From Escherichia coli (lineage in GTDB: Bacteria > Pseudomonadota > Gammaproteobacteria > Enterobacterales > Enterobacteriaceae), in the NCBI RefSeq assembly GCF_036507355.1, contig NZ_AP027877.1: a stretch of DNA of 64,000 bases; one strand, 5' to 3'. A program made the translations under genes and the position numbers. The stretch's first letter is position 1, and every line of letters begins with the position of its first letter. Below are positions 5,248 through 56,143 of the stretch, piece after piece. Under the pieces are notes generated by a model. That model worked only from the letters and a program-made list of their open reading frames with translations. It was not told where the DNA came from and did not search any database.

Positions 5248-7014
5248 TTATTCCGTGACTTCCAGCGTGGTGAAGGCAAACTTCTCGCCATCAAATAGCC
5301 CCTGACTGGTTAGTTTTAGCGCGGGGATCACTGGCAGAGAAAGAAACGCCATCTGAATAAACGGCTCATCGGGTAACGGACCGCATTCACGGGCGGCGGC
5401 TTTCAAGGCGTCAATTTGTTCCGCCAGCGACTGCGCCGTGTCGGTGCTCATCAGCCCGGCAATGGGCAACGGTAGATGACTTTGTACCTGGCCGTCACGT
5501 ACCACGCACAACCCGCCGCCATCCTGAATCACCTGATTGACCGCCAGCGCCATCTCTTCGGCACTGCGACCGATCACCACAATATTATGGCTGTCATGGC
5601 TGACCGTCGCAGCCAGCGCACCTTCATTCAGGCCAAAGCCGCCGAGCAAACCACAGGCCGGAGCCAGCCGTTGCCCGTAACGCTCAAGTACGGCAATAAA
5701 GCACACATCATCGCGATCAAAACCATTTTCGCTATAGACGCTGGAGCGGGAGTGCGTAATCAATTCGTTATGGATGACGTCAATGACCCGATAGCGTTTT
5801 CCGGGCATGAATTGCAGGGCAAAGTCGCTGGCGGAAACTGGCTGGCGGGCAATGGTATTGCCAAATGGCGGGGCAGACTGCGCCAGTCTCGCCGACTCTT
5901 CCGCCTGTAAGGTTTGCGCGTCAATCGGTTCGCCTTTCACCAGTACCTGCTGCACCGTGACCTTACGCGCATCGCTCAACAGGACGATATCAGCCTGCTT
6001 TCCGGGTGCCAGTAAGCCGAGGTGATTCAGACCAAAGTGGCGCGCCGTCGACCAGCTGGCGACGCGATATGCCACATGCAGCGGCACATTGTGTTGTTCG
6101 ATCAGGCGGCGAATTAGGGCATCGATATGCCCTTCATGGGCGATCTCCCACGGGTTACGGTCATCAGTACAGAGCATGCATTGCGGGCTGTTAAATTCGT
6201 TGATCAACGGTGCCAGTGCGTTGAGATTGCGGGCAGCGGACCCCTCGCGGATCATCAACGACATGCCGAGTTGTAATTTCCGGCGTCCTTCTTCCAGCTG
6301 ATAACTTTCGTGGCAGTTTTCAATACCCGCGGCAATATAGGCGTTAAGTTCTTTACCACCCAAACCCGGGCAGTGACCGTCCAGCGTCAGGTGGCGAAAT
6401 GCATCCAGTTTATCGAGCAGCGCATTCTGCCCGCTAATTACGCCAGGGTAGTCCATCATTTCTGCAAGGCCGGTAACCTGCGGATGGTCCCGCCAGGCGA
6501 GCATCTGTTCAAGGGTAAAACTGGCACCGTTAACATCGCAGCCTTCCAGAGCGGGCACGCAAGAGCTGACCTGTAAGTACTGGTTTTGCCTTGCCTGTTT
6601 GGCACAGCGGGCAAACCAGGCGAATCCGGCTTCGCCCATCACGTTGACGATTTCATGAGGGTCGCAAATAACGGTCGTCAGGCCGCGCGGCAGGGTAGCG
6701 GTTTCAAAAGTGACCGGCGTCATCATGCTGGATTCAATATGCAGGTGAGCATCAATAAACCCTGGCACCGCCGTTGCGCCGCGGGCATCAATCCGCTGCA
6801 AAGCCGGAGCATCAGTGTATTCTGCGCCAACACCGGCAATGTAACGTCCTTTAATCACAATTGGGCCGGAAATTTCTCCGCCATTGATCAGGTCGAGAAT
6901 AGAGACATTATCAATAATATAATCGGCAACAGCGTCGCCACGGGAAACGGCTAACAATTCCTGGTATTCAGCCCGGCTAATGTGATGAAATTTATGGTTA
7001 ATAGAATTATTCAT
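5248..7014 (-). CDS. ade: Adenine deaminase
   Basis: 588-aa ORF with amidohydrolase metal-binding motifs ([12 protein letters not shown]), matches Ade/YicP. Confidence 0.9.
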
Positions 7015-7188
7015 ATTTTTCTCATTTTGATTTTATCAATTTGATTATTATTTATCATAAAGAAACGTCGCGAGATTATTAAAGAATATCCATTAATGTG
7101 CAATTGAAATGTGATAATTATCACTGAACCGTTGTTGTCATTTGTTTTACAAAAGCAAGGGATTAAATCTCCTCCAATGGACAACAAA

Positions 7189-8523
7189 ATGAATAATGAC
7201 AATACCGATTACGTGAGTAATGAATCAGGGACGCTTTCGCGATTATTTAAACTACCTCAGCATGGGACCACCGTCCGCACAGAATTGATTGCGGGGATGA
7301 CCACTTTTTTAACCATGGTGTACATCGTTTTTGTGAATCCACAAATTCTCGGCGCGGCACAAATGGACCCGAAAGTGGTGTTTGTTACCACCTGTTTGAT
7401 TGCCGGTATCGGCAGCATTGCGATGGGGATATTTGCTAACTTACCTGTGGCGCTGGCTCCGGCAATGGGGCTGAACGCCTTCTTTGCCTTCGTGGTCGTG
7501 GGGGCGATGGGTATCTCCTGGCAGACCGGGATGGGCGCGATATTCTGGGGCGCAATTGGGCTATTTTTGCTCACGCTGTTTCGTATCCGGTACTGGATGA
7601 TCTCCAACATTCCATTAAGTTTACGTATTGGTATCACCAGTGGAATCGGATTATTTATTGCCTTAATGGGATTAAAAAACACTGGCGTTATTGTCGCCAA
7701 TAAAGACACCCTGGTGATGATTGGCGATTTAAGCTCTCACGGCGTGTTGTTAGGTATATTAGGTTTTTTTATTATAACCGTATTGTCATCACGTCATTTT
7801 CATGCCGCGGTGCTGGTTTCCATCGTCGTCACTTCCTGCTGCGGATTATTTTTCGGTGATGTTCATTTTAGCGGCGTCTATTCCATTCCGCCTGATATTA
7901 GCGGCGTCATTGGTGAAGTAGATTTGAGCGGCGCGTTAACACTTGAACTCGCCGGTATCATTTTCTCCTTTATGCTGATCAACCTATTTGATTCATCAGG
8001 AACATTAATTGGTGTAACTGATAAAGCTGGCTTAATAGATAGTAACGGTAAATTCCCCAATATGAATAAGGCGCTGTATGTTGATAGCGTCAGTTCGGTG
8101 GCGGGTGCGTTTATCGGCACCTCGTCTGTTACTGCCTATATTGAAAGTACTTCTGGTGTGGCAGTCGGTGGCCGCACGGGGCTGACTGCGGTTGTGGTTG
8201 GCGTTATGTTCCTGTTGGTTATGTTCTTCTCACCGCTGGTGGCGATGGTTCCTCCTTACGCAACCGCTGGAGCGTTAATCTTTGTTGGCGTGCTGATGAC
8301 TTCGAGCCTGGCGCGCGTTAACTGGGATGATTTTACCGAATCGGTGCCTGCGTTTATTACCACGGTGATGATGCCCTTTACTTTCTCGATCACCGAAGGG
8401 ATTGCACTCGGCTTTATGTCGTACTGCATCATGAAAGTGTGCACCGGGCGCTGGCGCGATCTGAACCTGTGTGTGGTGATGGTCGCAGCTCTGTTTGCAC
8501 TCAAGATTATTCTGGTGGATTAG
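7189..8523 (+). CDS. adeQ: Adenine permease AdeQ (NCS2 family)
   Basis: ORF 7111..8523; internal start MNNDNTDYVSNESG gives 444 aa; polytopic NCS2 transporter; divergent from ade. Confidence 0.85.
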   Translation: MNNDNTDYVSNESGTLSRLFKLPQHGTTVRTELIAGMTTFLTMVYIVFVNPQILGAAQMDPKVVFVTTCLIAGIGSIAMGIFANLPVALAPAMGLNAFFAFVVVGAMGISWQTGMGAIFWGAIGLFLLTLFRIRYWMISNIPLSLRIGITSGIGLFIALMGLKNTGVIVANKDTLVMIGDLSSHGVLLGILGFFIITVLSSRHFHAAVLVSIVVTSCCGLFFGDVHFSGVYSIPPDISGVIGEVDLSGALTLELAGIIFSFMLINLFDSSGTLIGVTDKAGLIDSNGKFPNMNKALYVDSVSSVAGAFIGTSSVTAYIESTSGVAVGGRTGLTAVVVGVMFLLVMFFSPLVAMVPPYATAGALIFVGVLMTSSLARVNWDDFTESVPAFITTVMMPFTFSITEGIALGFMSYCIMKVCTGRWRDLNLCVVMVAALFALKIILVD

Positions 8524-32087: not shown

Positions 32088-33470
32088 ATGAAGAGTGAAG
32101 TGTTGTCCGTTAAAGAGAAAATTGGTTATGGCATGGGAGACGCCGCCAGCCACATTATTTTCGATAACGTAATGTTATATATGATGTTCTTTTATACCGA
32201 TATTTTTGGCATTCCTGCCGGATTTGTCGGAACTATGTTTTTGGTCGCTCGTGCACTGGATGCGATTTCCGATCCTTGCATGGGGTTGTTGGCCGATCGA
32301 ACGCGCTCTCGCTGGGGTAAATTTCGTCCGTGGGTACTGTTTGGCGCACTGCCATTCGGGATCGTCTGTGTACTGGCCTATAGCACGCCAGATCTCAGTA
32401 TGAACGGTAAAATGATCTATGCAGCAATTACTTACACCCTACTTACCTTACTTTATACCGTCGTCAATATCCCTTACTGCGCATTGGGTGGTGTAATCAC
32501 CAATGACCCGACTCAGCGTATCTCGCTGCAATCCTGGCGTTTTGTGCTGGCGACCGCGGGAGGCATGCTTTCTACGGTTCTGATGATGCCACTGGTTAAT
32601 TTAATTGGTGGTGATAATAAACCACTCGGTTTCCAGGGCGGTATCGCGGTCCTTTCCGTGGTGGCATTCATGATGCTGGCATTCTGTTTCTTCACCACTA
32701 AAGAACGCGTTGAAGCACCACCTACAACGACGTCTATGCGGGAAGATTTACGTGATATCTGGCAAAACGACCAGTGGCGGATTGTCGGTTTACTAACCAT
32801 TTTCAATATCCTGGCGGTGTGCGTACGCGGTGGAGCGATGATGTATTACGTCACATGGATTTTGGGTACGCCGGAAGTGTTTGTCGCTTTTCTCACCACT
32901 TATTGCGTGGGTAACCTGATTGGTTCCGCACTGGCAAAACCGCTGACCGACTGGAAATGTAAAGTCACTATCTTCTGGTGGACGAACGCCCTGCTCGCAG
33001 TGATTAGCATCGCGATGTTCTTTGTTCCCATGCAGGCCAGCATCACTATGTTTGTCTTCATCTTCGTGATTGGTGTGTTGCATCAACTGGTGACACCTAT
33101 CCAGTGGGTAATGATGTCCGATACCGTCGACTACGGCGAGTGGTGCAATGGTAAACGCCTGACCGGAATCAGTTTTGCTGGCACGCTGTTTGTTCTCAAA
33201 CTGGGGTTGGCCTTCGGCGGCGCTCTTATCGGCTGGATGCTGGCTTATGGCGGATATGATGCGGCAGAAAAAGCGCAGAACAGCGCCACGATTAGCATCA
33301 TTATCGCGCTATTCACGATTGTTCCGGCGATCTGTTATTTGCTGAGCGCGATTATCGCTAAACGCTACTACTCACTCACGACGCACAATCTGAAAACCGT
33401 TATGGAACAGCTGGCTCAGGGCAAACGCCGTTGCCAGCAACAATTCACCTCTCAAGAAGTGCAGAACTAA
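32088..33470 (+). CDS. yicJ: MFS glycoside-pentoside-hexuronide family transporter YicJ
   Basis: ORF 32031..33470; start at MKSEVLSVKEKIGYGMGD. Confidence 0.85.
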   Translation: MKSEVLSVKEKIGYGMGDAASHIIFDNVMLYMMFFYTDIFGIPAGFVGTMFLVARALDAISDPCMGLLADRTRSRWGKFRPWVLFGALPFGIVCVLAYSTPDLSMNGKMIYAAITYTLLTLLYTVVNIPYCALGGVITNDPTQRISLQSWRFVLATAGGMLSTVLMMPLVNLIGGDNKPLGFQGGIAVLSVVAFMMLAFCFFTTKERVEAPPTTTSMREDLRDIWQNDQWRIVGLLTIFNILAVCVRGGAMMYYVTWILGTPEVFVAFLTTYCVGNLIGSALAKPLTDWKCKVTIFWWTNALLAVISIAMFFVPMQASITMFVFIFVIGVLHQLVTPIQWVMMSDTVDYGEWCNGKRLTGISFAGTLFVLKLGLAFGGALIGWMLAYGGYDAAEKAQNSATISIIIALFTIVPAICYLLSAIIAKRYYSLTTHNLKTVMEQLAQGKRRCQQQFTSQEVQN

Positions 33471-49438: not shown

Positions 49439-50261
49439 CTATTTCTTCTCTGTAATTTTTACACTGTTTTCCAACTGCTTGATGCTGACCTGCGGGGTCG
49501 GCAACTCCTCAGGCATGGTTCCGCCAAGTTCCTGAATGGTTTGCCTCACCTTGCTACCCACGTCAAAGTGTGTGGTATTAGCTTGCTGTTTTGAATTCAC
49601 GCCATCCCGCTTGAGTTTTTCTTCTGTTTGGGTAGCTCGAAAGAGATTAGCCGCCAGTTCTGTTGAACCCATATGATCCAGGATCTTCTGACTCTTTTTC
49701 AGCCCCTTCCGCTGATGGATGGCTTTCTGATCTAATCCACCATACAGCCCCGGTAACCATGATTCTGAAATATGGCGAAATCGATAGCTGTTGCTACCCC
49801 AGCTTGCTGCGCTGCCTCAACTAATTGTTTGTTATGTTCTTTCAATTCATTTCTCAGAAAAAGACGCTTTTCGTCTTCACGAAGTTGCCTGAAAGCTTCA
49901 TCGTCAGCCAGCTCCTGCCGTCGGGTCTGGATAGCAAAATAAGTTTGTCCTGCCGCAATAACCGGTTTCGCAGGGTCGCCGTTTTGTACTACCAGGTAAC
50001 AGGCATAGCGGGAGAGATGAACATCTTCAAGTTCTCGTTGAGCCCTGAACCTAATACAACCATTTTGGTGGTTTCAACGAAATGGTCAGATGCAGCTTGA
50101 TTGCTGGCTTCGCACGCTTGAGTCGCGCGGGTCAGTACCTTTTGAAAACTGCGCCAGTCCCGATAATCCAGTAACGGTGCCAATTCTCTCGCTGACCAAA
50201 ATTCTTGCCCTTCAGTGCCATAATGCCGTATCTCTTCAAAAGGTTGATGATGTTCGTTCAT
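49439..50261 (-). pseudogene. dinD: DNA-damage-inducible protein DinD, interrupted by an apparent -1 frameshift near 50040
   Basis: ORF 49989..50273 gives the DinD N-terminus (MNEHHQPFEEIRHYGTEGQEFW...) then terminates early; the remaining DinD sequence ([27 protein letters not shown] ... MGSTELAANLF...) reads through to 49439 in the adjacent frame. Confidence 0.65.
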
Positions 50262-50322: not shown

Positions 50323-50485
50323 TTGTGAGTATCTCACGTTCTCAGTGTGCTGGGCAAAAAGACATCGCAAAATCTGGAGCAGGCACGCAAAACAGAATTG
50401 AAAGTTGCGGGGAAGAAAAATGCCGCTCTGTTTGAGTGGGCGGCATTTGTGAAGGCTGAAAAGTAAGAATTGGCGTTACGAGTTA

Positions 50486-50502
50486 TTCAATGTTCTGAAT
50501 CT
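50486..50502. repeat. attR-like direct repeat (tcaatgttctgaatctg) of the integrative element
   Basis: 16 of 17 bases identical to 58622..58638 at the other end of the integrase-containing block. Confidence 0.7.
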
Positions 50503-50647
50503 GAATATTGAATTGTGGGTTATATGTATTGATATTTAAATGATTTTTGTTTTTCTGGTTTTGCTTGTGTACACGTAGGGGTACATGGATTTACAGGGAT
50601 TACAATTTTTATTGTGTGATTTATGACCAATTGTAATTTTGTGTAAG

Positions 50648-51048: not shown

Positions 51049-51237
51049 TCATGATTTCCCCGCATAGAAGTTCTGGTTAAATAGCTTCTGACTCATCCCC
51101 GTACTATCCGCTTTGCCACCAGAATAAAAAGCCTTGTTAAAGTCAGATTGACTGCTACCACTGAAGGAAGTGCCAGTTTTGCCCTCTCGCGCTTCACGCG
51201 CTTTTCTCAATGCCTCGATTACGGATGCTTTACTCAT
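51049..51237 (-). CDS. Hypothetical 62-aa Ser/Gly-rich protein, translationally coupled to the upstream gene
   Basis: Start ATG overlaps the stop of the 134-aa ORF (ATGA); internal FNKAFYSGG / FNQNFYAGK repeats. Confidence 0.5.
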   Translation of the reverse strand: MSKASVIEALRKAREAREGKTGTSFSGSSQSDFNKAFYSGGKADSTGMSQKLFNQNFYAGKS

Positions 51238-51638
51238 CGTGCAAACCCTCGTGTAATACTGGTGTAACCTCGACCGGCTGCTTTGCTCAGTTCATTCAGG
51301 CCATTGGTCACAACCTTCGATTCCCAACCGATAACCCCATTAATAGAGCGCGGCAAAGGGAAGTTCCCGTCCCTGCTCCATTCCTTCAATTTGGCAGTGG
51401 TGAGTGCTTTGCCATATTGGCGCTGATATCTCACACAAACATCATCAGGGCTTACCAGACCCACTTTGCTGAGGCCCAACGGCGAGTGAGAGTATTCGAT
51501 TTGCTTTACATACCAACCATCACCAACGGCGTACAGACCGGATGGATGGCGCTTACACTCATCAGCTTGGCGGCGTTGTTCTGCTGCTTGCTTTTGTTCA
51601 ATCAAAATTGTTTCTAACTCAGTCATTGGTGTCACCAT
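51234..51638 (-). CDS. Hypothetical 134-aa protein, first gene of a coupled two-gene module
   Basis: ORF with no recognisable domain; operator-like repeats directly upstream. Confidence 0.5.
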   Translation of the reverse strand: MVTPMTELETILIEQKQAAEQRRQADECKRHPSGLYAVGDGWYVKQIEYSHSPLGLSKVGLVSPDDVCVRYQRQYGKALTTAKLKEWSRDGNFPLPRSINGVIGWESKVVTNGLNELSKAAGRGYTSITRGFAR

Positions 51639-51643
51639 TAAAA

Positions 51644-51694
51644 TGTACTAGCGTGAGGGTACATTATACCAACCGTACTAGCTTGCTGGTACAA
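51644..51694. promoter_or_regulatory. Two 19-bp operator-like repeats (GTACTAGC-N6-GGTACA) upstream of the coupled gene pair
   Basis: tgtactagcgtgagggtaca and cgtactagcttgctggtaca, about 30 bp centre to centre; each contains inverted GTAC half-sites. Confidence 0.45.
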
Positions 51695-52041
51695 TATTCA
51701 CACCAAATAAGTGATTGTTTGGCACACCATCAAAGCGCAGCAGTAAGGAGCGCCTCGGCACTGGGAACAGTGTTCGGGGTTTTCTTTTAGGGCCAGCAGA
51801 GATGTAAGGTAAATCGTGGTGTAGGTGATATCAGATGAATCGGCGATAACCCGAAAACGGTTAGCAAATGTCAGTAGCTGATAAGGTATGAAATAGTAAG
51901 CAAGCGAACCATTCGTAGGGGTAATGTCAGGGTAACGTAATGGTGATATCAGGGTTATCTTAGGGAAGAGGTTAGGTTGGGGTCAGCAAAATGGTAGGGC
52001 ATTATGAGCCTACATTCTTCTTACCCCAAGATGCGGGGGAA

Positions 52042-52497
52042 TTATTTGTTGAGGAACTCACTGTTTTCTAAGCATTTGTATTTGATGTAATCGACCGCTG
52101 TCGGAGTGGTCACAGTAGCAAATTCCTCAAAGACTTTTTTCTTTTCAGTATCGACTATTGTTTTAAGCTCTTCTTTGAATTTCTTTTCTTGTCCCTCCTT
52201 CCACTCCGTGGCAATAAATAGGCATGATTTCCCCTTCTGACTAGCAATTGGATCTAATTGTGAAAGCGCCATTTCAGCTCTCTTGTAAGCCTCTTCAAAT
52301 GATACCTCTCCACCATTACGCGAAACAATTTCAACAAGCTGATTAGCTAATTTGCTCTTTTGTTGTTCTGCCAATCTCCCGGACATTTCAGCCAATGCTC
52401 CGGCATGTACAGTGGCAGTAGCCAAGAGTGTAAGTGTGATAATAGCTATACTTTTCAATTTCTTGTCCTTATTTGTTGTTATGTGAACATATCCCAT
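52042..52497 (-). CDS. Hypothetical secreted protein with Sec signal peptide
   Basis: 151-aa ORF; KKLKSIAIITLTLLATATVHA signal-like segment, Lys/Glu-rich mature part; ATG start. Confidence 0.55.
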   Translation of the reverse strand: MGYVHITTNKDKKLKSIAIITLTLLATATVHAGALAEMSGRLAEQQKSKLANQLVEIVSRNGGEVSFEEAYKRAEMALSQLDPIASQKGKSCLFIATEWKEGQEKKFKEELKTIVDTEKKKVFEEFATVTTPTAVDYIKYKCLENSEFLNK

Positions 52498-52556
52498 ATC
52501 TGATTATCTCAAAACCTACATCATTTGGTATGTTTTTCAGGTTTATATATTTTGCT

Positions 52557-52666
52557 TGTCCCATCTGTCCCGTTGTCCCATAGATTTTATATATATTGTA
52601 TTTCATATGGTTAGCTTGTTTTTTTATGGGACAAGAATGGGACAAAGCGGGACAGGTTTTTGTCCC
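52557..52666. repeat. Iteron module 1: three direct TGTCCC repeats, AT-rich spacer, three inverted GGGACA repeats (plus one more TGTCCC); candidate replication origin
   Basis: Hexamers at 52557, 52566, 52574 (TGTCCC) and 52628, 52639, 52649 (GGGACA), 52661 (TGTCCC); immediately downstream of the helicase gene. Confidence 0.6.
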
Positions 52667-52758
52667 ATTGAAGTTTTTTGTTTGAAACACATACAAATTT
52701 GGTTGGTGTAGGTGGGCTGGTCGCAAAAAAACACCCGCACAGTGGCGGGCATTGGTTC

Positions 52759-54465
52759 TCAATCTTCGAGGCTGTCACGATGGATTATGTAACATCTGAC
52801 GCGACCCAAACCGGGCAGATATCGACGATCTGGTTTGGTGATACCCTTCGCCTGTAAAACGCTGGCAGCTCGTCTGGCATCAAGTCCGGCAAAAATCACT
52901 TTCCAGCCTTCAACCGGGATAATGTACTCGTCATCTTTAATAAACCCAACTCGCGCCGTCGGTATCTCATCTGGTTTATTAGCGTCCTGAAAACGCGCCC
53001 CGTCACGCACTATGGTTTGTCTGATACGCTCGACGATCTCATTATCTTCATGGCTTTCCGTACCTCCTCTACGCTCAATCCATGCGGTAAAGCAGACTTT
53101 CGCCGCTTCTGTCGCAGTTCCCGGACTCCAACCCGTTATCTCAGAAGACAGTTCGCCAGCATAGGCCGCTATGGCGAACTTCTCAGCAACACGCCCGATC
53201 TGACCGGAAGGGTCTTCAGCTACAGAATTAAGAAAGGCCGATTTAAAATCGCGCCAGCCCTCCTTAATGGTGTCGTAATTGATAGTCAGGTGATCAAGCC
53301 ATGCGTTAAACGCTGTACCGTGATTTTCTCGTACTGCCTTGTCCAGACGGTCAGCAAACAAAGCGCCGTTTGCCTCTCCGTGAATCGTGTCGAAACAGGC
53401 AAATTCGCAGTTATCAGCAGGTATGTTAATCACTCGCATTTCCTGCCCGGCATATGTACTTTTCCGAACCGAATCAGCATGGGATTTGAGATCAATTTCA
53501 CCATTGGATAATAGCGCCAAACACCATTGCTGAATCTCTTTGGCTGTTCCGTTTTTGGTGCTTCGTTGCTTGCCTTTCCCATTCGGAAGCATGTACGCGA
53601 TTTCCCCGGCTTTGCTTGCGTCTACTTGTGCGATTTCATCAAGGCACAGAAGGCCGTCATTATGGCGTGCTGCGATACCTTCCAGCCCGTTATCTGTCGC
53701 ACGCCATGAGCGAATATATTCTTTGGGGTCGGAAATAACAGAAGCGGCAACCGTCATTGACCGGGATTTGCCTGAAGATGATGCCCCTACATAATGGAAG
53801 CAGAATCCATCAACTCCCAGCATGGTGAGCATAGGGGACAGGAACGCAGTAGATACCGCCAGAATCAGACGACTATTACCAACGCACAACGCCGCCACTT
53901 CATCGCGCCATGTCGCCAGGGTGCCGCAGGATGGCTCTGGCTTTACTCGGGCATTAACCTGATAGACAACCATATCTTTATCAATTGGGTTAAATGTCCG
54001 CACCGGGGTCACGTATACGGCAGGTTTAAACCAACCGCAGCGAGTAACGCAGGTTAACCGGCTTTGGTGGGATTGCCCTTTGAGATAACGGATGAACGCC
54101 TTCTCATCCCAGATACGCAGGCCGCCGTTAACCAGAATGCTAATGGCTTCAGCTCCTCCATTTGCGTAAAGTGAAGTCGCAGGCATCGCCCATTTCTTTG
54201 GCATCCCGTCACGGTCACACCATGACAGAAGTTTGCCCCACGACTCGTTATCCTTGTCTCTGGTTTCCGCAGTGACCTCAATAACATCAGATATACAGAC
54301 GGGTGCCGGATTGGGGTTTTTCTCCGTTGGTGCTCTGTAGAAGTAAACGCCAGCATCCCCGCGTTCCCTGTCGTACTCCCGATGTACCCAGTAAAACGGC
54401 GGCAGCTTTTCGGCTGGCGGGTTGTCTTTGTGGACTGATAAATCAATCACGTTGTTCGTGCTCAT
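52759..54465 (-). CDS. DUF927-type P-loop helicase (replicative helicase of P4 alpha / D5 type)
   Basis: Walker A-like GASSSGKS; start ATG (MSTNNVIDL) overlaps the primase stop (ATGA); original ORF 52759..54480. Confidence 0.7.
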   Translation of the reverse strand: MSTNNVIDLSVHKDNPPAEKLPPFYWVHREYDRERGDAGVYFYRAPTEKNPNPAPVCISDVIEVTAETRDKDNESWGKLLSWCDRDGMPKKWAMPATSLYANGGAEAISILVNGGLRIWDEKAFIRYLKGQSHQSRLTCVTRCGWFKPAVYVTPVRTFNPIDKDMVVYQVNARVKPEPSCGTLATWRDEVAALCVGNSRLILAVSTAFLSPMLTMLGVDGFCFHYVGASSSGKSRSMTVAASVISDPKEYIRSWRATDNGLEGIAARHNDGLLCLDEIAQVDASKAGEIAYMLPNGKGKQRSTKNGTAKEIQQWCLALLSNGEIDLKSHADSVRKSTYAGQEMRVINIPADNCEFACFDTIHGEANGALFADRLDKAVRENHGTAFNAWLDHLTINYDTIKEGWRDFKSAFLNSVAEDPSGQIGRVAEKFAIAAYAGELSSEITGWSPGTATEAAKVCFTAWIERRGGTESHEDNEIVERIRQTIVRDGARFQDANKPDEIPTARVGFIKDDEYIIPVEGWKVIFAGLDARRAASVLQAKGITKPDRRYLPGLGRVRCYIIHRDSLED

Positions 54466-55331
54466 GCCACTGCCTCCCATTTCTTGACCAGTTCATTTTT
54501 GTGATCGTTCCAGTCGCCATGTCTGGACGGGATTAGCAGCTCGCAACGGTAGCGACTTGCCGCATCAATGGCTTTAGTTACTCCCGGGTTGCCATCTGTA
54601 TTCGCATCATTATCGGCGGCAATGATGATGCGGGCGCGTGGAAATTCACTGCGCACACTCTCAGATACCTCTCGCAGGTTTCCGGCAGTAAAGGCGACAC
54701 AGACCGGGCAGCCCGTTACTTCTCGAACGGTGGCGGCGGTGGCATAGCCTTCAGCGATGAAAATGGTTTTGTCATTGACGACTAACCCGCCCAGCCAATA
54801 GCGTCCACCTTTCAATAGTGCGCCAGATTTAAAGCGCTTTGTGCCGTCCGGCATAATGTACTGAATGGACTGTACACTTCCGTACTGATCATGGATTGGA
54901 ATCAGTAACCAGTCACCAGATTGATAAATGCCATGCGCCCCAACACCTTTGCGCAATAGGTAAGGGTGATTATCACTGGCAGGAACTGCGCTACTAATCT
55001 TGGCTCTACATTCGGCAGCGGCGGCAACCTCAGCTTTACGCTGTATCGCTCCAATTGCCCGGCGTGCTTCCATCATCACGCGCTTACGTTCAATGCTGTT
55101 GACCTGTACACCATCGAGAAAGTGACACGCGGTTATGCCAGTTTTCCAGCTACCAAAAGCACAGCCCGCGCCATCAGGGAACGGGTAAGCCCAGCCATTA
55201 AGCGAGCCAGGTTTATCGCCCTCGATACGAAAGCGGGCAACGGTGCCGGGGATTAATTCCGGCAGTTCGCAAGGTATTACGCCAGCCTCGCGCATGGTGT
55301 CAGACAGGGATTGTCTTTGATGTGTAGTCAT
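54462..55331 (-). CDS. Toprim-domain DNA primase (P4 alpha N-terminal-like)
   Basis: ORF 54462..55388; ATG at 55331 (MTTHQRQSL) has an AGGAAA RBS; toprim-like acidic motif IIAADNDANTDGNPG. Confidence 0.65.
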   Translation of the reverse strand: MTTHQRQSLSDTMREAGVIPCELPELIPGTVARFRIEGDKPGSLNGWAYPFPDGAGCAFGSWKTGITACHFLDGVQVNSIERKRVMMEARRAIGAIQRKAEVAAAAECRAKISSAVPASDNHPYLLRKGVGAHGIYQSGDWLLIPIHDQYGSVQSIQYIMPDGTKRFKSGALLKGGRYWLGGLVVNDKTIFIAEGYATAATVREVTGCPVCVAFTAGNLREVSESVRSEFPRARIIIAADNDANTDGNPGVTKAIDAASRYRCELLIPSRHGDWNDHKNELVKKWEAVA

Positions 55332-55398: not shown

Positions 55399-55860
55399 TT
55401 ACTCAGTATGATCAGCGGCATCCTTTGGGGTGCCGTTTTGCTTTATCCGGTCATTAATTTCCTCCAGCAAGTCTTCAGCCTTAACCAATTCTCTGATTGC
55501 CTTTGCTGTCCGCGCTGCCTCTGCTTCAGCTTTGTCGGCTGATTTTTTGGCTAACTGTTCGCGCCTTTCGGCTCTGGCTTGAGCATCCAACTCCCAATCG
55601 CATGAAAGGTGGCGGCCATCTAGATACCTGCTTACGATAACGCCTCTTTCATCCGTATCCTCATGAATGAACCACCAGCCATGCTTCTCGTTCATTAATT
55701 GCTGCAATGGTGAGCGATAGTGTTTACCTGCTATTTGAAGTAATTCGTCTTCACAAACAGGGCCATCAACCAGCGCGCGCCAGATTCGATATGCCTTTGT
55801 GCCTGGCTTAGGGATAGTGTGCAACGGCGCAGTAATCAGGATTTTCTCCCAGTTCTTCAT
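55399..55860 (-). CDS. Hypothetical protein translationally coupled to alpA
   Basis: Start ATG (MKNWEKILITAPL) overlaps the alpA stop (ATGA); charged C-terminal helix. Confidence 0.5.
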   Translation of the reverse strand: MKNWEKILITAPLHTIPKPGTKAYRIWRALVDGPVCEDELLQIAGKHYRSPLQQLMNEKHGWWFIHEDTDERGVIVSRYLDGRHLSCDWELDAQARAERREQLAKKSADKAEAEAARTAKAIRELVKAEDLLEEINDRIKQNGTPKDAADHTE

Positions 55861-56030
55861 TTTTTGGCCTCCAGCCATGAGTTGATTTCTGTTGAAGACC
55901 ATGCTGTAACGCGTTCAGAAAGTTTTATGGGTTTTGGTATCTTCCCGGTTCTTGCCCAGCGCCAAAGAGAAGAAACGCTAATTCCCAGTTGGTTAGCCAG
56001 GTCTTTAGGGCGTAAATATTGCGTTTTCAT
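55857..56030 (-). CDS. alpA: AlpA-family phage transcriptional regulator / excisionase-like HTH protein
   Basis: 57-aa product MKTQYLRPKDLANQLGISVSSLWRWARTGKIPKPIKL... typical of AlpA. Confidence 0.8.
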   Translation of the reverse strand: MKTQYLRPKDLANQLGISVSSLWRWARTGKIPKPIKLSERVTAWSSTEINSWLEAKK

Positions 56031-56143
56031 TTGGTATACCTCGCTCAACGCACTGCCACTCAGTGCTACGACAGCAAAGATAAAGGCATCCAGTGGCAGA
56101 TATAATGCGCAGCAAAGTAGGTCTTCACTTTCAAAGTAGGTCT

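What the first reader, a model, noticed from the sequence alone, without database searches (positions are those of the whole stretch)
55857..55860. Three ATGA stop-start overlaps in the integrative element
The alpA stop overlaps the start of the 153-aa gene (55857..55860), the primase stop overlaps the helicase start (54462..54465), and the 134-aa stop overlaps the 62-aa start (51234..51237). This indicates translational coupling of three gene pairs and supports all six ORFs being real genes in fixed stoichiometry.
Basis: seen in the sequence. Interest (0 to 1): 0.3.

Follow-up and report, generated by a model that had tools for sequence, protein, structure and literature searches.

The report
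Ordinary ATGA stop-start gene overlaps
Three neighbouring gene pairs in a small 8-kb mobile island of E. coli share the four bases ATGA as stop and start; the overlaps are real and conserved, but this is the commonest way bacterial genes abut and nothing about it is unusual.

Summary
Each ATG has a strong Shine-Dalgarno 7-8 nt upstream, unlike the alternative upstream ATGs. The junctions persist in diverged relatives: alpA/153-aa and 134/62-aa in Enterobacteriaceae, primase/helicase as far as Pseudomonas, Azotobacter and an alphaproteobacterium. All six ORFs are real genes (dN/dS 0.07-0.28 where measurable; Pfam/PHROG hits for AlpA, Toprim primase and DUF927 helicase).

The -4 ATGA overlap is the most frequent arrangement of same-strand gene pairs in E. 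coli and is pervasive in related phage satellites, so the feature is textbook. Translational coupling is plausible: 4 of 5 tested E. coli ATGA pairs were coupled. It is untested here. "Fixed stoichiometry" does not follow: about 30% of closely spaced E. coli pairs encode complex subunits.

The host element is an 8,135-bp island inserted in the last 20 nt of yicC. It carries int, alpA, a winged-helix partner, a Toprim primase, a DUF927 helicase and a PICI-type iteron origin. No packaging or capsid genes were found, so it is PICI-like, not a proven satellite.

The parts
55857..55860 (-). ATGA junction 1: alpA stop TGA (55857-55859) overlapping the ATG (55858-55860) of the 153-aa gene.
   Evidence: One search gives the sequence. 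The SD GGAGG lies 7 nt upstream, with a -9.3 kcal/mol duplex. It is encoded by the conserved AlpA C-terminal W-L-E codons. The junction is conserved in L001-L005, L010, L011, L014, L016 and L018.
54462..54465 (-). ATGA junction 2: Toprim primase stop overlapping the DUF927 helicase start.
   Evidence: One search gives the sequence. The SD GGGAGG scores -10.2 kcal/mol. The junction is conserved in L001-L006, L010-L012 and L018-L022.
51234..51237 (-). ATGA junction 3: 134-aa gene stop overlapping the 62-aa gene start.
   Evidence: One search gives the sequence. The SD GAGGG scores -6.4 kcal/mol. The junction is ATGA in 8 loci including the window. It is replaced by TAAATG (0-nt spacer) in L003, L010 and L011.
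55857..56030 (-). alpA, 57 aa from the ATG at 56030. The 96-aa GTG ORF reaching 56147 is probably spurious.
   Evidence: Pfam PF05930 at 1.2e-10. The ATG has an SD of -9.7 kcal/mol; the GTG has +0.4. PGAP calls it at 57-62 aa in relatives.
55399..55860 (-). 153-aa partner of AlpA: predicted winged-helix domain plus a long C-terminal helix.
   Evidence: The family has 87 clusters at 50% identity, and homologue N-termini coincide with the ATGA start. The AF2 model has pLDDT 95.9. Fold hits are weak and all MarR/ArsR-like winged-helix regulators. pN 0.29 against pS 0.84 versus L003.
54462..55331 (-). Toprim-domain DNA primase, 289 aa from the ATG at 55331.
   Evidence: PF13362 at 1.7e-13 and phrog_2249 'DNA primase' at 8e-53. 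dN/dS is 0.08-0.14. All of the top 120 homologues listed show Toprim domains only, and 118 of them are about 264-370 aa.
52759..54465 (-). DUF927 P-loop replicative helicase, 568 aa. Walker A is GASSSGKS and Walker B is LLCLDE.
   Evidence: PF06048 at 1.2e-75 and phrog_1139/8841. NCBIfam SCCmec Cch1 helicase hits at 4e-19, below its cut-off. dN/dS is 0.07-0.17.
51234..51638 (-). 134-aa conserved hypothetical gene. The true start may be Met5 at 51626.
   Evidence: 19 homologue clusters, with an alignment invariant from M5 onward. dN/dS is 0.21-0.28. The AF2 model is poor, pLDDT 57.
51049..51237 (-). 62-aa conserved small gene.
   Evidence: Homologues of 55-100% identity in L001-L007. dN/dS is 0.16-0.27. 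It is called as a 62-aa gene with a -4 overlap in L018.
57182..58441 (-). Tyrosine integrase with an Arm-DNA-binding domain.
   Evidence: PF13356, PF22022, PF00589 and phrog_1.
58619..58638 (.). att copy at the yicC end: the last 20 nt of yicC including its stop.
   Evidence: The K-12 empty-site alignment overlaps by 20 nt. Repeat D1 matches it.
50484..50503 (.). att copy at the dinD end. The island between the two copies is 8,135 bp.
   Evidence: Both copies encode QIQNIE-stop (read).
52550..52670 (.). Iteron cluster A, the probable origin: three direct (T/C)TGTCCC, an AT-rich spacer, then three inverted copies. It lies immediately 3' of the helicase.
   Evidence: (I1, I4). It matches the PICI ori description in PMC6092414. 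In L007, which has another replicase, different iterons occupy this position.
52730..52753 (-). Intrinsic-terminator-like hairpin directly after the helicase stop.

Best explanation
The three ATGA tetramers are genuine stop/start junctions of three co-transcribed gene pairs on the - strand of an 8.1-kb PICI-like integrative island. The pairs are alpA with a winged-helix partner, the Toprim primase with the DUF927 helicase, and the 134-aa with the 62-aa gene.

Shown: each downstream gene most likely begins at the overlapping ATG, which sits 7-8 nt after a strong Shine-Dalgarno motif embedded in the last codons of the upstream gene.

Inferred: a ribosome terminating at TGA is positioned one base from the next AUG and can reinitiate (termination-reinitiation). 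The SD helps retain or recruit the 30S subunit, so the downstream protein is made mainly when and where the upstream one is. This is the standard compact-operon arrangement of bacteria and their mobile elements, not a special device of this island. It ties expression of the partners together but does not by itself set a fixed ratio.
For: Sequence and ORFs.

SD duplex energies are -9.3, -10.2 and -6.4 kcal/mol for the ATGA starts. The alternative upstream ATGs at 55878, 55902 and 54480 score +0.2, +0.4 and -2.2. Only 2.2% of island 20-mers reach -9.

In L003 the 153-aa frame is open only from -22, so the ATGA ATG is the only possible start. Homologue N-termini coincide with the 153-aa start. 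Codons 2-4 of the helicase differ from L002 only synonymously.

PGAP calls the -4 overlap for all three pairs in L002, for two pairs in L001 and for two in L003.

Junction conservation is shown. It holds where alpA is only 45-67% identical, and in L022 where the helicase family is swapped for DUF3631.

Real genes: dN/dS 0.07-0.28 where dS could be estimated, and pN well below pS in the saturated L003 comparisons.

Literature: -4 ATGA is the commonest unidirectional junction in E. coli. Four of 5 native E. coli ATGA pairs are strictly coupled and most depend on the SD. Reinitiation collapses once the spacing grows to a few tens of nt, with an 80-100% loss at +38 nt.
Against: There are no expression, ribosome-profiling or proteomic data for this island.

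The internal SDs are strong enough for independent initiation, and bioBF shows that an ATGA pair can be uncoupled.

PGAP chose the -19 ATG (159 aa, 22-nt overlap) in the 99%-identical L001. That 159-aa form is also deposited, on 28 contigs against 343 for the 153-aa form.

The -16 ATG before the helicase is conserved in all relatives, because it is the A+TGG of a conserved Trp codon. It is annotated as the start in one Citrobacter protein.

Predicted SD occlusion in naked mRNA (P unpaired 0.20, 0.15 and 0.51) is no different from first-in-operon controls, so it says nothing either way.
Confidence: 0.75

Rival explanations
1. The overlaps are real junctions, but translation is not coupled. Each downstream gene is initiated de novo by free 30S subunits at its strong internal SD. 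The ATGA is then only a by-product of selection for compactness, or of neutral stop/start turnover.
For: The SDs of -6.4 to -10.2 kcal/mol are as strong as, or stronger than, those of first-in-operon genes of the island. The bioBF precedent shows an uncoupled ATGA pair. The 134/62 junction drifted to TAAATG in one lineage and the alpA/partner junction to +2 and +8 in others, without loss of the genes.
Against: Four of 5 tested E. coli ATGA pairs were coupled. The drifted variants still lie within the -8..+10 range that the authors took as predictive of reinitiation. The primase/helicase overlap is kept across gamma-, beta- and alphaproteobacterial hosts at 33-48% protein identity.
Confidence: 0.3
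2. One or two of the downstream genes actually start at an upstream in-frame ATG: 55878 or 55902 for the 153-aa gene, 54480 for the helicase. The true overlaps would then be 22, 46 or 19 nt rather than ATGA.
For: PGAP calls the 159-aa form in L001. The 159-aa and 573-aa forms both exist in databases. The -16 ATG is conserved.
Against: No SD precedes these ATGs (+0.2, +0.4 and -2.2 kcal/mol). The -43 ATG is absent in L002-L005, and both the -43 and -19 ATGs are excluded by an in-frame stop in L003. Homologues of the 153-aa protein have no N-terminal extension. PGAP and the other gene callers use the -4 start in L002, L003, L006, L010, L011 and L018-L022.
Confidence: 0.08
3. The ATGA coincidences are chance and some of the small ORFs (153, 134 or 62 aa) are not genes.
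For: None of the three has a Pfam, PHROG, NCBIfam, PADLOC or PDB sequence match. The exact 62-aa sequence is not in the protein collection.
Against: dN/dS is 0.16-0.28 for the 134- and 62-aa genes, and pN is 0.29 against pS 0.84 for the 153-aa gene versus L003. The 153-aa family has 87 clusters and a confident fold, pLDDT 95.9. The 134-aa protein has 19 homologue clusters. The 62-aa gene is conserved in every related locus examined that carries this module.
Confidence: 0.02

Closest known systems
Native E. coli -4 (ATGA) overlapping pairs tested for termination-reinitiation (hyfH-hyfI, astD-astB, ydbH-ynbE, menD-menH; Huber et al. 2019, PMC6728339, and 2023, PMC10666635)
   Same: Same strand, ATGA stop/start, and an SD motif inside the 3' end of the upstream gene.
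   Different: Those pairs were tested with reporters; these were not. The SDs here are at the strong end of the range, which makes independent initiation more conceivable.
Gram-negative phage-inducible chromosomal islands such as EcCICFT073 and EcCIMP1 (PMC6092414, PMC11773190)
   Same: int, then a cargo gene, alpA, a primase and replicase, and an origin made of two iteron sets flanking an AT-rich region. All genes are transcribed one way. There are no structural or lysis genes, and the att site is specific.
   Different: Only 8.1 kb against about 12-15 kb. The primase and helicase are separate Toprim and DUF927 genes. No cos site, terS, rpp or capsid-morphogenesis gene was found. Helper phage, induction and transfer are unknown. 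It would score as a SatelliteFinder 'Type C' element.
Pseudomonas satellite-like elements vB_Pae_U10 (PP003922) and phiAH14b (KU708005; PMC4936722)
   Same: A Toprim primase followed by a DUF927 helicase about 33% identical to this one. The junction overlaps by -4 in U10. AlpA- or excisionase-type regulators lie upstream, and there are many ATGA junctions with G-rich SDs.
   Different: They carry capsid or tail-related genes (GpN major capsid in U10, a tail assembly protein in phiAH14b). The phiAH14b primase/helicase overlap is annotated as 14 nt.
Satellite phage P4 alpha primase-helicase with its ori and crr sites (from my own knowledge; not tested here)
   Same: A primase plus helicase replication function in an int-alpA(vis) satellite. 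The island has two iteron clusters about 4.5 kb apart, which resembles P4 ori and crr.
   Different: P4 alpha is one fused polypeptide of a different helicase family. P4 has sid, psu, delta and epsilon, none of which was detected here. In L007 the int-proximal cluster persists with a different replicase, which argues against a strict crr-like role.

Membership tests
-4 nt (ATGA) overlapping unidirectional gene pair, candidate for termination-reinitiation coupling | Upstream stop and downstream start on the same strand share ATGA. | tested here: met
   for all three sites.
-4 nt (ATGA) overlapping unidirectional gene pair, candidate for termination-reinitiation coupling | A Shine-Dalgarno motif lies in the 3' end of the upstream gene at the proper spacing. 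| tested here: met
   GGAGG, GGGAGG and GAGGG lie 7-8 nt upstream, with duplex energies of -9.3, -10.2 and -6.4 kcal/mol.
-4 nt (ATGA) overlapping unidirectional gene pair, candidate for termination-reinitiation coupling | Translation of the downstream gene depends on translation of the upstream gene. | not testable with these tools
   This needs reporter constructs with premature stops, or ribosome profiling. The mRNA-folding proxy was uninformative.
-4 nt (ATGA) overlapping unidirectional gene pair, candidate for termination-reinitiation coupling | The partners are subunits of one complex, which is the 'fixed stoichiometry' reading. | not testable with these tools
   Only 30.4% of such E. 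coli pairs encode complex subunits. One distant PHROG profile (phrog_1139) spans both the primase and helicase halves, but the top 120 primase homologues all show Toprim domains only.
Gram-negative PICI (Fillol-Salom et al. 2018) | An integrase, an AlpA regulator just downstream in the same orientation, and a primase/replicase module. | tested here: met
Gram-negative PICI (Fillol-Salom et al. 2018) | [quoted passage not shown] | tested here: met
   Cluster A at 52550-52670. The definition is quoted. This is tested at sequence level only; function is not tested.
Gram-negative PICI (Fillol-Salom et al. 2018) | No phage structural or lysis genes. | tested here: met
   The only PHROG hits among the 10 island proteins are to the integrase, alpA, primase and helicase.
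Gram-negative PICI (Fillol-Salom et al. 2018) | Size typically 12-15 kb. | tested here: not met
   8,135 bp between the att copies.
Gram-negative PICI (Fillol-Salom et al. 2018) | A packaging or hijacking module: cos or pac site, terS, rpp or capsid morphogenesis. | tested here: not met
   No family hits for the 151-, 134-, 62- and 97-aa proteins. No lambda cosN or P2/P4 cos motif was found; both motifs were recalled from memory. This is absence of detection, not proof of absence.
Gram-negative PICI (Fillol-Salom et al. 2018) | Induction by a helper phage and high-frequency transfer in phage particles. | not testable with these tools
   These are experimental criteria.
P4-like satellite (SatelliteFinder core: psu, delta, sid, alpA, epsilon, alpha, int) | Presence of the sid/psu/delta/epsilon hijacking genes. 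| tested here: not met
   No PHROG or Pfam hits of that kind among the island proteins. Only int, alpA and a primase are shared.
AlpA family (PF05930) | A match above the Pfam gathering score. | tested here: met
   41.5 bits against a cut-off of 21.

The most novel reading that the evidence does not exclude
The island may represent an uncharacterised family of minimal (about 8 kb) helper-dependent satellites at the yicC 3' end. In this reading the tightly abutted AlpA and winged-helix/coiled-coil pair acts as a two-protein regulatory switch. That dyad is conserved next to three different replicase types. The two identical iteron clusters 4.5 kb apart would act together in replication or regulation, as P4 ori and crr do. 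The ATGA junctions would then be the means by which each module is expressed as a unit.
Probability: 0.15. Interest if true: 0.4.

Novelty: already known. Interest (0 to 1): 0.1.

Why it matters
It matters little. The overlaps help fix the start codons of three poorly annotated genes; PGAP is inconsistent on the 153-aa gene, calling 153 or 159 aa. They also define three expression units of the island: a regulatory pair, a replication pair and an unknown pair. The surrounding element is a tidy example of the many int-alpA-primase 'Type C' islands whose satellite status is unresolved. That is a separate question from the finding.

Tried and rejected
(1) Gene fusions as evidence of partnership. 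The cluster look-up grouped AlpA with the 153-aa protein and the primase with the helicase, which hinted at fusions. Reading the 201-219-aa members showed they are the unrelated cargo gene of other islands. The grouping is a clustering artefact, so this was rejected.

(2) A split primase-helicase. The top 120 primase homologues listed all show Toprim domains only, nearly all at about 264-370 aa. Only one distant PHROG profile spans both halves. There is no evidence of a recent split.

(3) SD occlusion by mRNA structure as a sign of obligatory coupling. This was uninformative, because control start sites look the same.

(4) Function of the 134-aa protein. One homologue is named 'PrtN family', but its Pfam match is E = 0.28. 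The AF2 model has pLDDT 57, so no fold search was run.

(5) No PDB sequence relatives for the 153-, 134- and 97-aa proteins. No Rfam hits between 49 and 60 kb. No PADLOC hits for the cargo genes. No lambda or P2/P4 cos motif.

(6) The genome-contig scan with the helicase gave only two close relatives. Wider diversity had to come from protein searches plus contig look-ups.

(7) The exact number of -4 pairs in E. coli could not be read from the supplement of PMC10666635. A 50-kb annotated neighbour region was counted instead.

Full report
OBSERVATION. The + strand reads TCAT at 55857-55860, 54462-54465 and 51234-51237, which is ATGA on the - strand where all island genes lie. In each case TGA ends the upstream ORF and the ATG opens the next one. 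The pairs are alpA into a 153-aa gene, a Toprim primase into a DUF927 helicase, and a 134-aa into a 62-aa gene.

GENE IDENTITY AND REALITY. AlpA matches PF05930 (41.5 bits against a cut-off of 21). The primase matches Toprim_3 and phrog_2249 'DNA primase' (8e-53). The helicase matches DUF927 (1.2e-75) and primase/helicase PHROGs. It also has a sub-threshold match to the SCCmec Cch1 replicative helicase (4e-19) and clear Walker A and B motifs. The 153-, 134- and 62-aa proteins match no curated family and no solved structure by sequence.

They are nonetheless genes. Against diverged copies, dN/dS is 0.07-0.17 for alpA, the primase and the helicase, and 0.16-0.28 for the 134- and 62-aa genes. The 153-aa gene gives pN 0.29 against pS 0.84 versus L003. 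The 153-aa protein belongs to a family of 87 clusters at 50% identity. It folds with pLDDT 95.9 into a winged-helix domain plus a roughly 55-residue helix. Its only fold neighbours are weak (E about 0.07-0.3), and all are MarR/ArsR-type regulators. So the six ORFs are real, but this rests on conservation and not on the overlaps.

A control makes the point. A fourth apparent overlap, GTGA at 56144-56147 between the 283-aa gene and a GTG-extended alpA ORF, has no SD (+0.4 kcal/mol). Every annotation ignores it and calls alpA at 57-62 aa.

START CODONS. Two downstream genes have in-frame ATGs further upstream: 55878 and 55902 for the 153-aa gene, and 54480 for the helicase. Duplex energies with the 16S 3' end are -9.3, -10.2 and -6.4 kcal/mol for the three ATGA starts. 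The alternatives score +0.2, +0.4 and -2.2. Only 2.2% of all 20-mers on this strand of the island reach -9.

In L003 (alpA 45% and partner 58% identical) the partner's frame is closed by a stop 22 nt before the junction. The ATGA ATG is therefore the only possible start there, and the GGAGG is retained. Homologues of the 153-aa protein begin within a few residues of its Met1. Helicase codons 2-4 differ from L002 by three synonymous changes and no replacement.

The -16 ATG before the helicase cannot be excluded by conservation, because it is the A+TGG of a conserved Trp codon. It lacks an SD, however. PGAP is inconsistent on the 153-aa gene: it aa with a 22-nt overlap in the 99%-identical L001, but the -4 start in L002 and L003. 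The database holds the 153-aa form on 343 contigs and the 159-aa form on 28.

CONSERVATION OF THE JUNCTIONS. Counts below include the window.
- alpA/partner: ATGA in 11 of 13 loci that carry both genes, including islands whose replicase is a different protein (L014 AAA_25, L016 YagK/Rep-like). The other two loci have spacers of +2 and +8.
- Primase/helicase: ATGA in the window and in 13 of 15 other loci. These include Pseudomonas vB_Pae_U10, where the helicase is about 33% identical, and Azotobacter. They also include an alphaproteobacterial island in which the helicase is replaced by a DUF3631 protein. Two further loci are annotated with 11- and 14-nt overlaps.
- 134/62: ATGA in 8 loci and TAAATG (0 spacer) in 3.

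All variants stay within the -8..+10 range that Huber et al. took as predictive of reinitiation.

IS IT MORE THAN CHANCE? Against random sequence, yes. Of 83 mechanical ORFs of at least 100 aa in the window, only two end in A-TGA leading into at least 50 open codons, and both are in the island. Shuffles gave 0-2.

Against biology, no. The -4 ATGA overlap is the commonest configuration of unidirectional pairs in E. coli, and 24% of such pairs lie between -8 and +6. Three of nine same-strand junctions in the island is a mild excess over the neighbouring chromosome of a related strain, where my count is 1 of 27. My own hand calculation gives a Fisher p of about 0.04. It is typical of related satellites: 4 of 7 in vB_Pae_U10 and 7 of 17 in the phiAH14b segment.

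WHAT THE ELEMENT IS. Alignment with the K-12 yicC-dinD interval gives a 20-nt duplication at 50484-50503 and 58619-58638. This is the last 20 nt of yicC, and both copies encode QIQNIE-stop. The island between them is 8,135 bp.

The gene order is int, a 283-aa MerR-like cargo gene, alpA, the 153-aa winged-helix partner, the primase, the helicase, a terminator, iterons, a 151-aa cargo gene, then the 134-, 62- and 97-aa genes. All are on one strand.

The iteron cluster immediately 3' of the helicase has three (T/C)TGTCCC, an AT-rich spacer and three inverted copies. [quoted passage not shown] No structural, lysis, terS or capsid-morphogenesis gene and no cos motif was found, and the island is smaller than the usual 12-15 kb. 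By SatelliteFinder's scheme it is a 'Type C' PICI-like element, a class the authors decline to call satellites with confidence. Full-length copies are rare: 8 of 5,426 complete E. coli genomes cover at least 80% of the query. Relatives sit at the same site in Citrobacter and Atlantibacter; further relatives in Kluyvera and Shimwellia were found, but their insertion site was not checked.

MECHANISM AND INTERPRETATION. The best-supported reading is ordinary translational coupling by termination-reinitiation, assisted by an SD. Four of five native E. coli ATGA pairs behaved this way, and SD removal cut reinitiation by 60-100% in four. Increasing the spacing to +38 nt reduced reinitiation by 80-100%. 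That step is inferred here, not shown.

'Fixed stoichiometry' is an over-reading. Only 30.4% of closely spaced E. coli pairs encode complex subunits. One ATGA pair was uncoupled. The strong SDs here could add independent initiation. For the primase/helicase pair a physical partnership is plausible on functional grounds, but near relatives show Toprim domains only. For the other two pairs the partner functions are unknown.

VERDICT. The phenomenon is textbook and already known. Interest is low.

Noticed in passing
window 52550-52670 and 57049-57165: There are two iteron clusters of identical design: 3-4 direct (T/C)TGTCCC about 10 bp apart, a roughly 45-bp AT-rich spacer, then 3 inverted copies. 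They lie 4.5 kb apart and include a perfect 25-nt inverted repeat (52550-74 / 57141-65). Eleven of the 13 TTGTCCC in the whole window are in these clusters. One cluster sits just 3' of the helicase and is the probable origin. The other lies between int and the 283-aa gene. Each lies about 55-170 nt upstream of the next gene start. The role of the second cluster is unexplained; it could be P4 crr-like or an operator.
   Followed up: partly
L007 3340-3560 and 6585-6692 (E. coli PD4, same yicC site): This is a mosaic island with a D5-like primase in place of Toprim plus DUF927. At the position 3' of its replicase it carries different iterons, TGA(C/T)GGACTT. It still keeps the TGTCCC cluster next to int. 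The origin iterons therefore travel with the replicase, while the int-proximal cluster does not.
   Followed up: partly
window 55399-56030; L014, L016, L017, L018: alpA followed directly by a roughly 130-160-aa winged-helix/coiled-coil protein is a conserved dyad. It occurs in islands with three unrelated replicase types: Toprim+DUF927, AAA_25 and YagK/Rep-like. The partner family has no Pfam, PHROG or NCBIfam model.
   Followed up: partly
window 49439-50261: dinD is a pseudogene in this strain. The K-12 protein aligns in three different frames; there is a 1-nt deletion near 49751 and a second frame shift near 50000-50055. The first roughly 240 nt are a highly divergent allele, about 45% identical at the amino-acid level.
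   Followed up: partly
window 56113-56150: A perfect 19-nt tandem direct repeat, CAAAGTAGGTCTTCACTTT twice, spans the stop of the 283-aa gene and lies 83-120 nt upstream of the alpA start. It may be an operator or promoter element for alpA.
   Followed up: no
window 51640-52041: A 403-nt non-coding gap lies between the 151-aa and 134-aa genes. It holds a 30-nt tandem repeat (51645-51704) abutting the 134-aa start, 11-nt-period repeats (51914-51955) and a duplicated GGTGATATCAG (51824 and 51942). It could be a promoter/operator or a packaging site. No known cos motif was found.
   Followed up: partly
window 56144-56995 and 52042-52497, compared with L001, L002, L003, L006 and L018: There are two variable cargo slots. 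Between int and alpA the gene is a 283-aa MerR-HTH protein here, versus unrelated 191-204-aa proteins elsewhere. Between the helicase and the 134-aa gene it is a 151-aa signal-peptide protein here, versus TM2-domain, DUF5681 or other genes elsewhere. None matches PADLOC defence models.
   Followed up: partly
window 58558-58580 (- strand): A terminator-like hairpin lies 38 nt downstream of the yicC stop. It is inside the island, between the att core and int. The island therefore appears to supply both the replacement 3' end and a terminator for yicC.
   Followed up: no
window 51049-51237: The 62-aa protein is low-complexity and carries an internal repeat, FNKAFYSGGK and FNQNFYAGK. It is probably disordered.
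   Followed up: no
window 32206-32403 (+), 7011-7202 (-), 6456-6614 (-): Three other short mechanical ORFs (52-65 aa) end in A-TGA leading into long open frames of 356, 588 and 403 codons. These are probably spurious upstream ORFs, but they could be further real -4 junctions.
   Followed up: no
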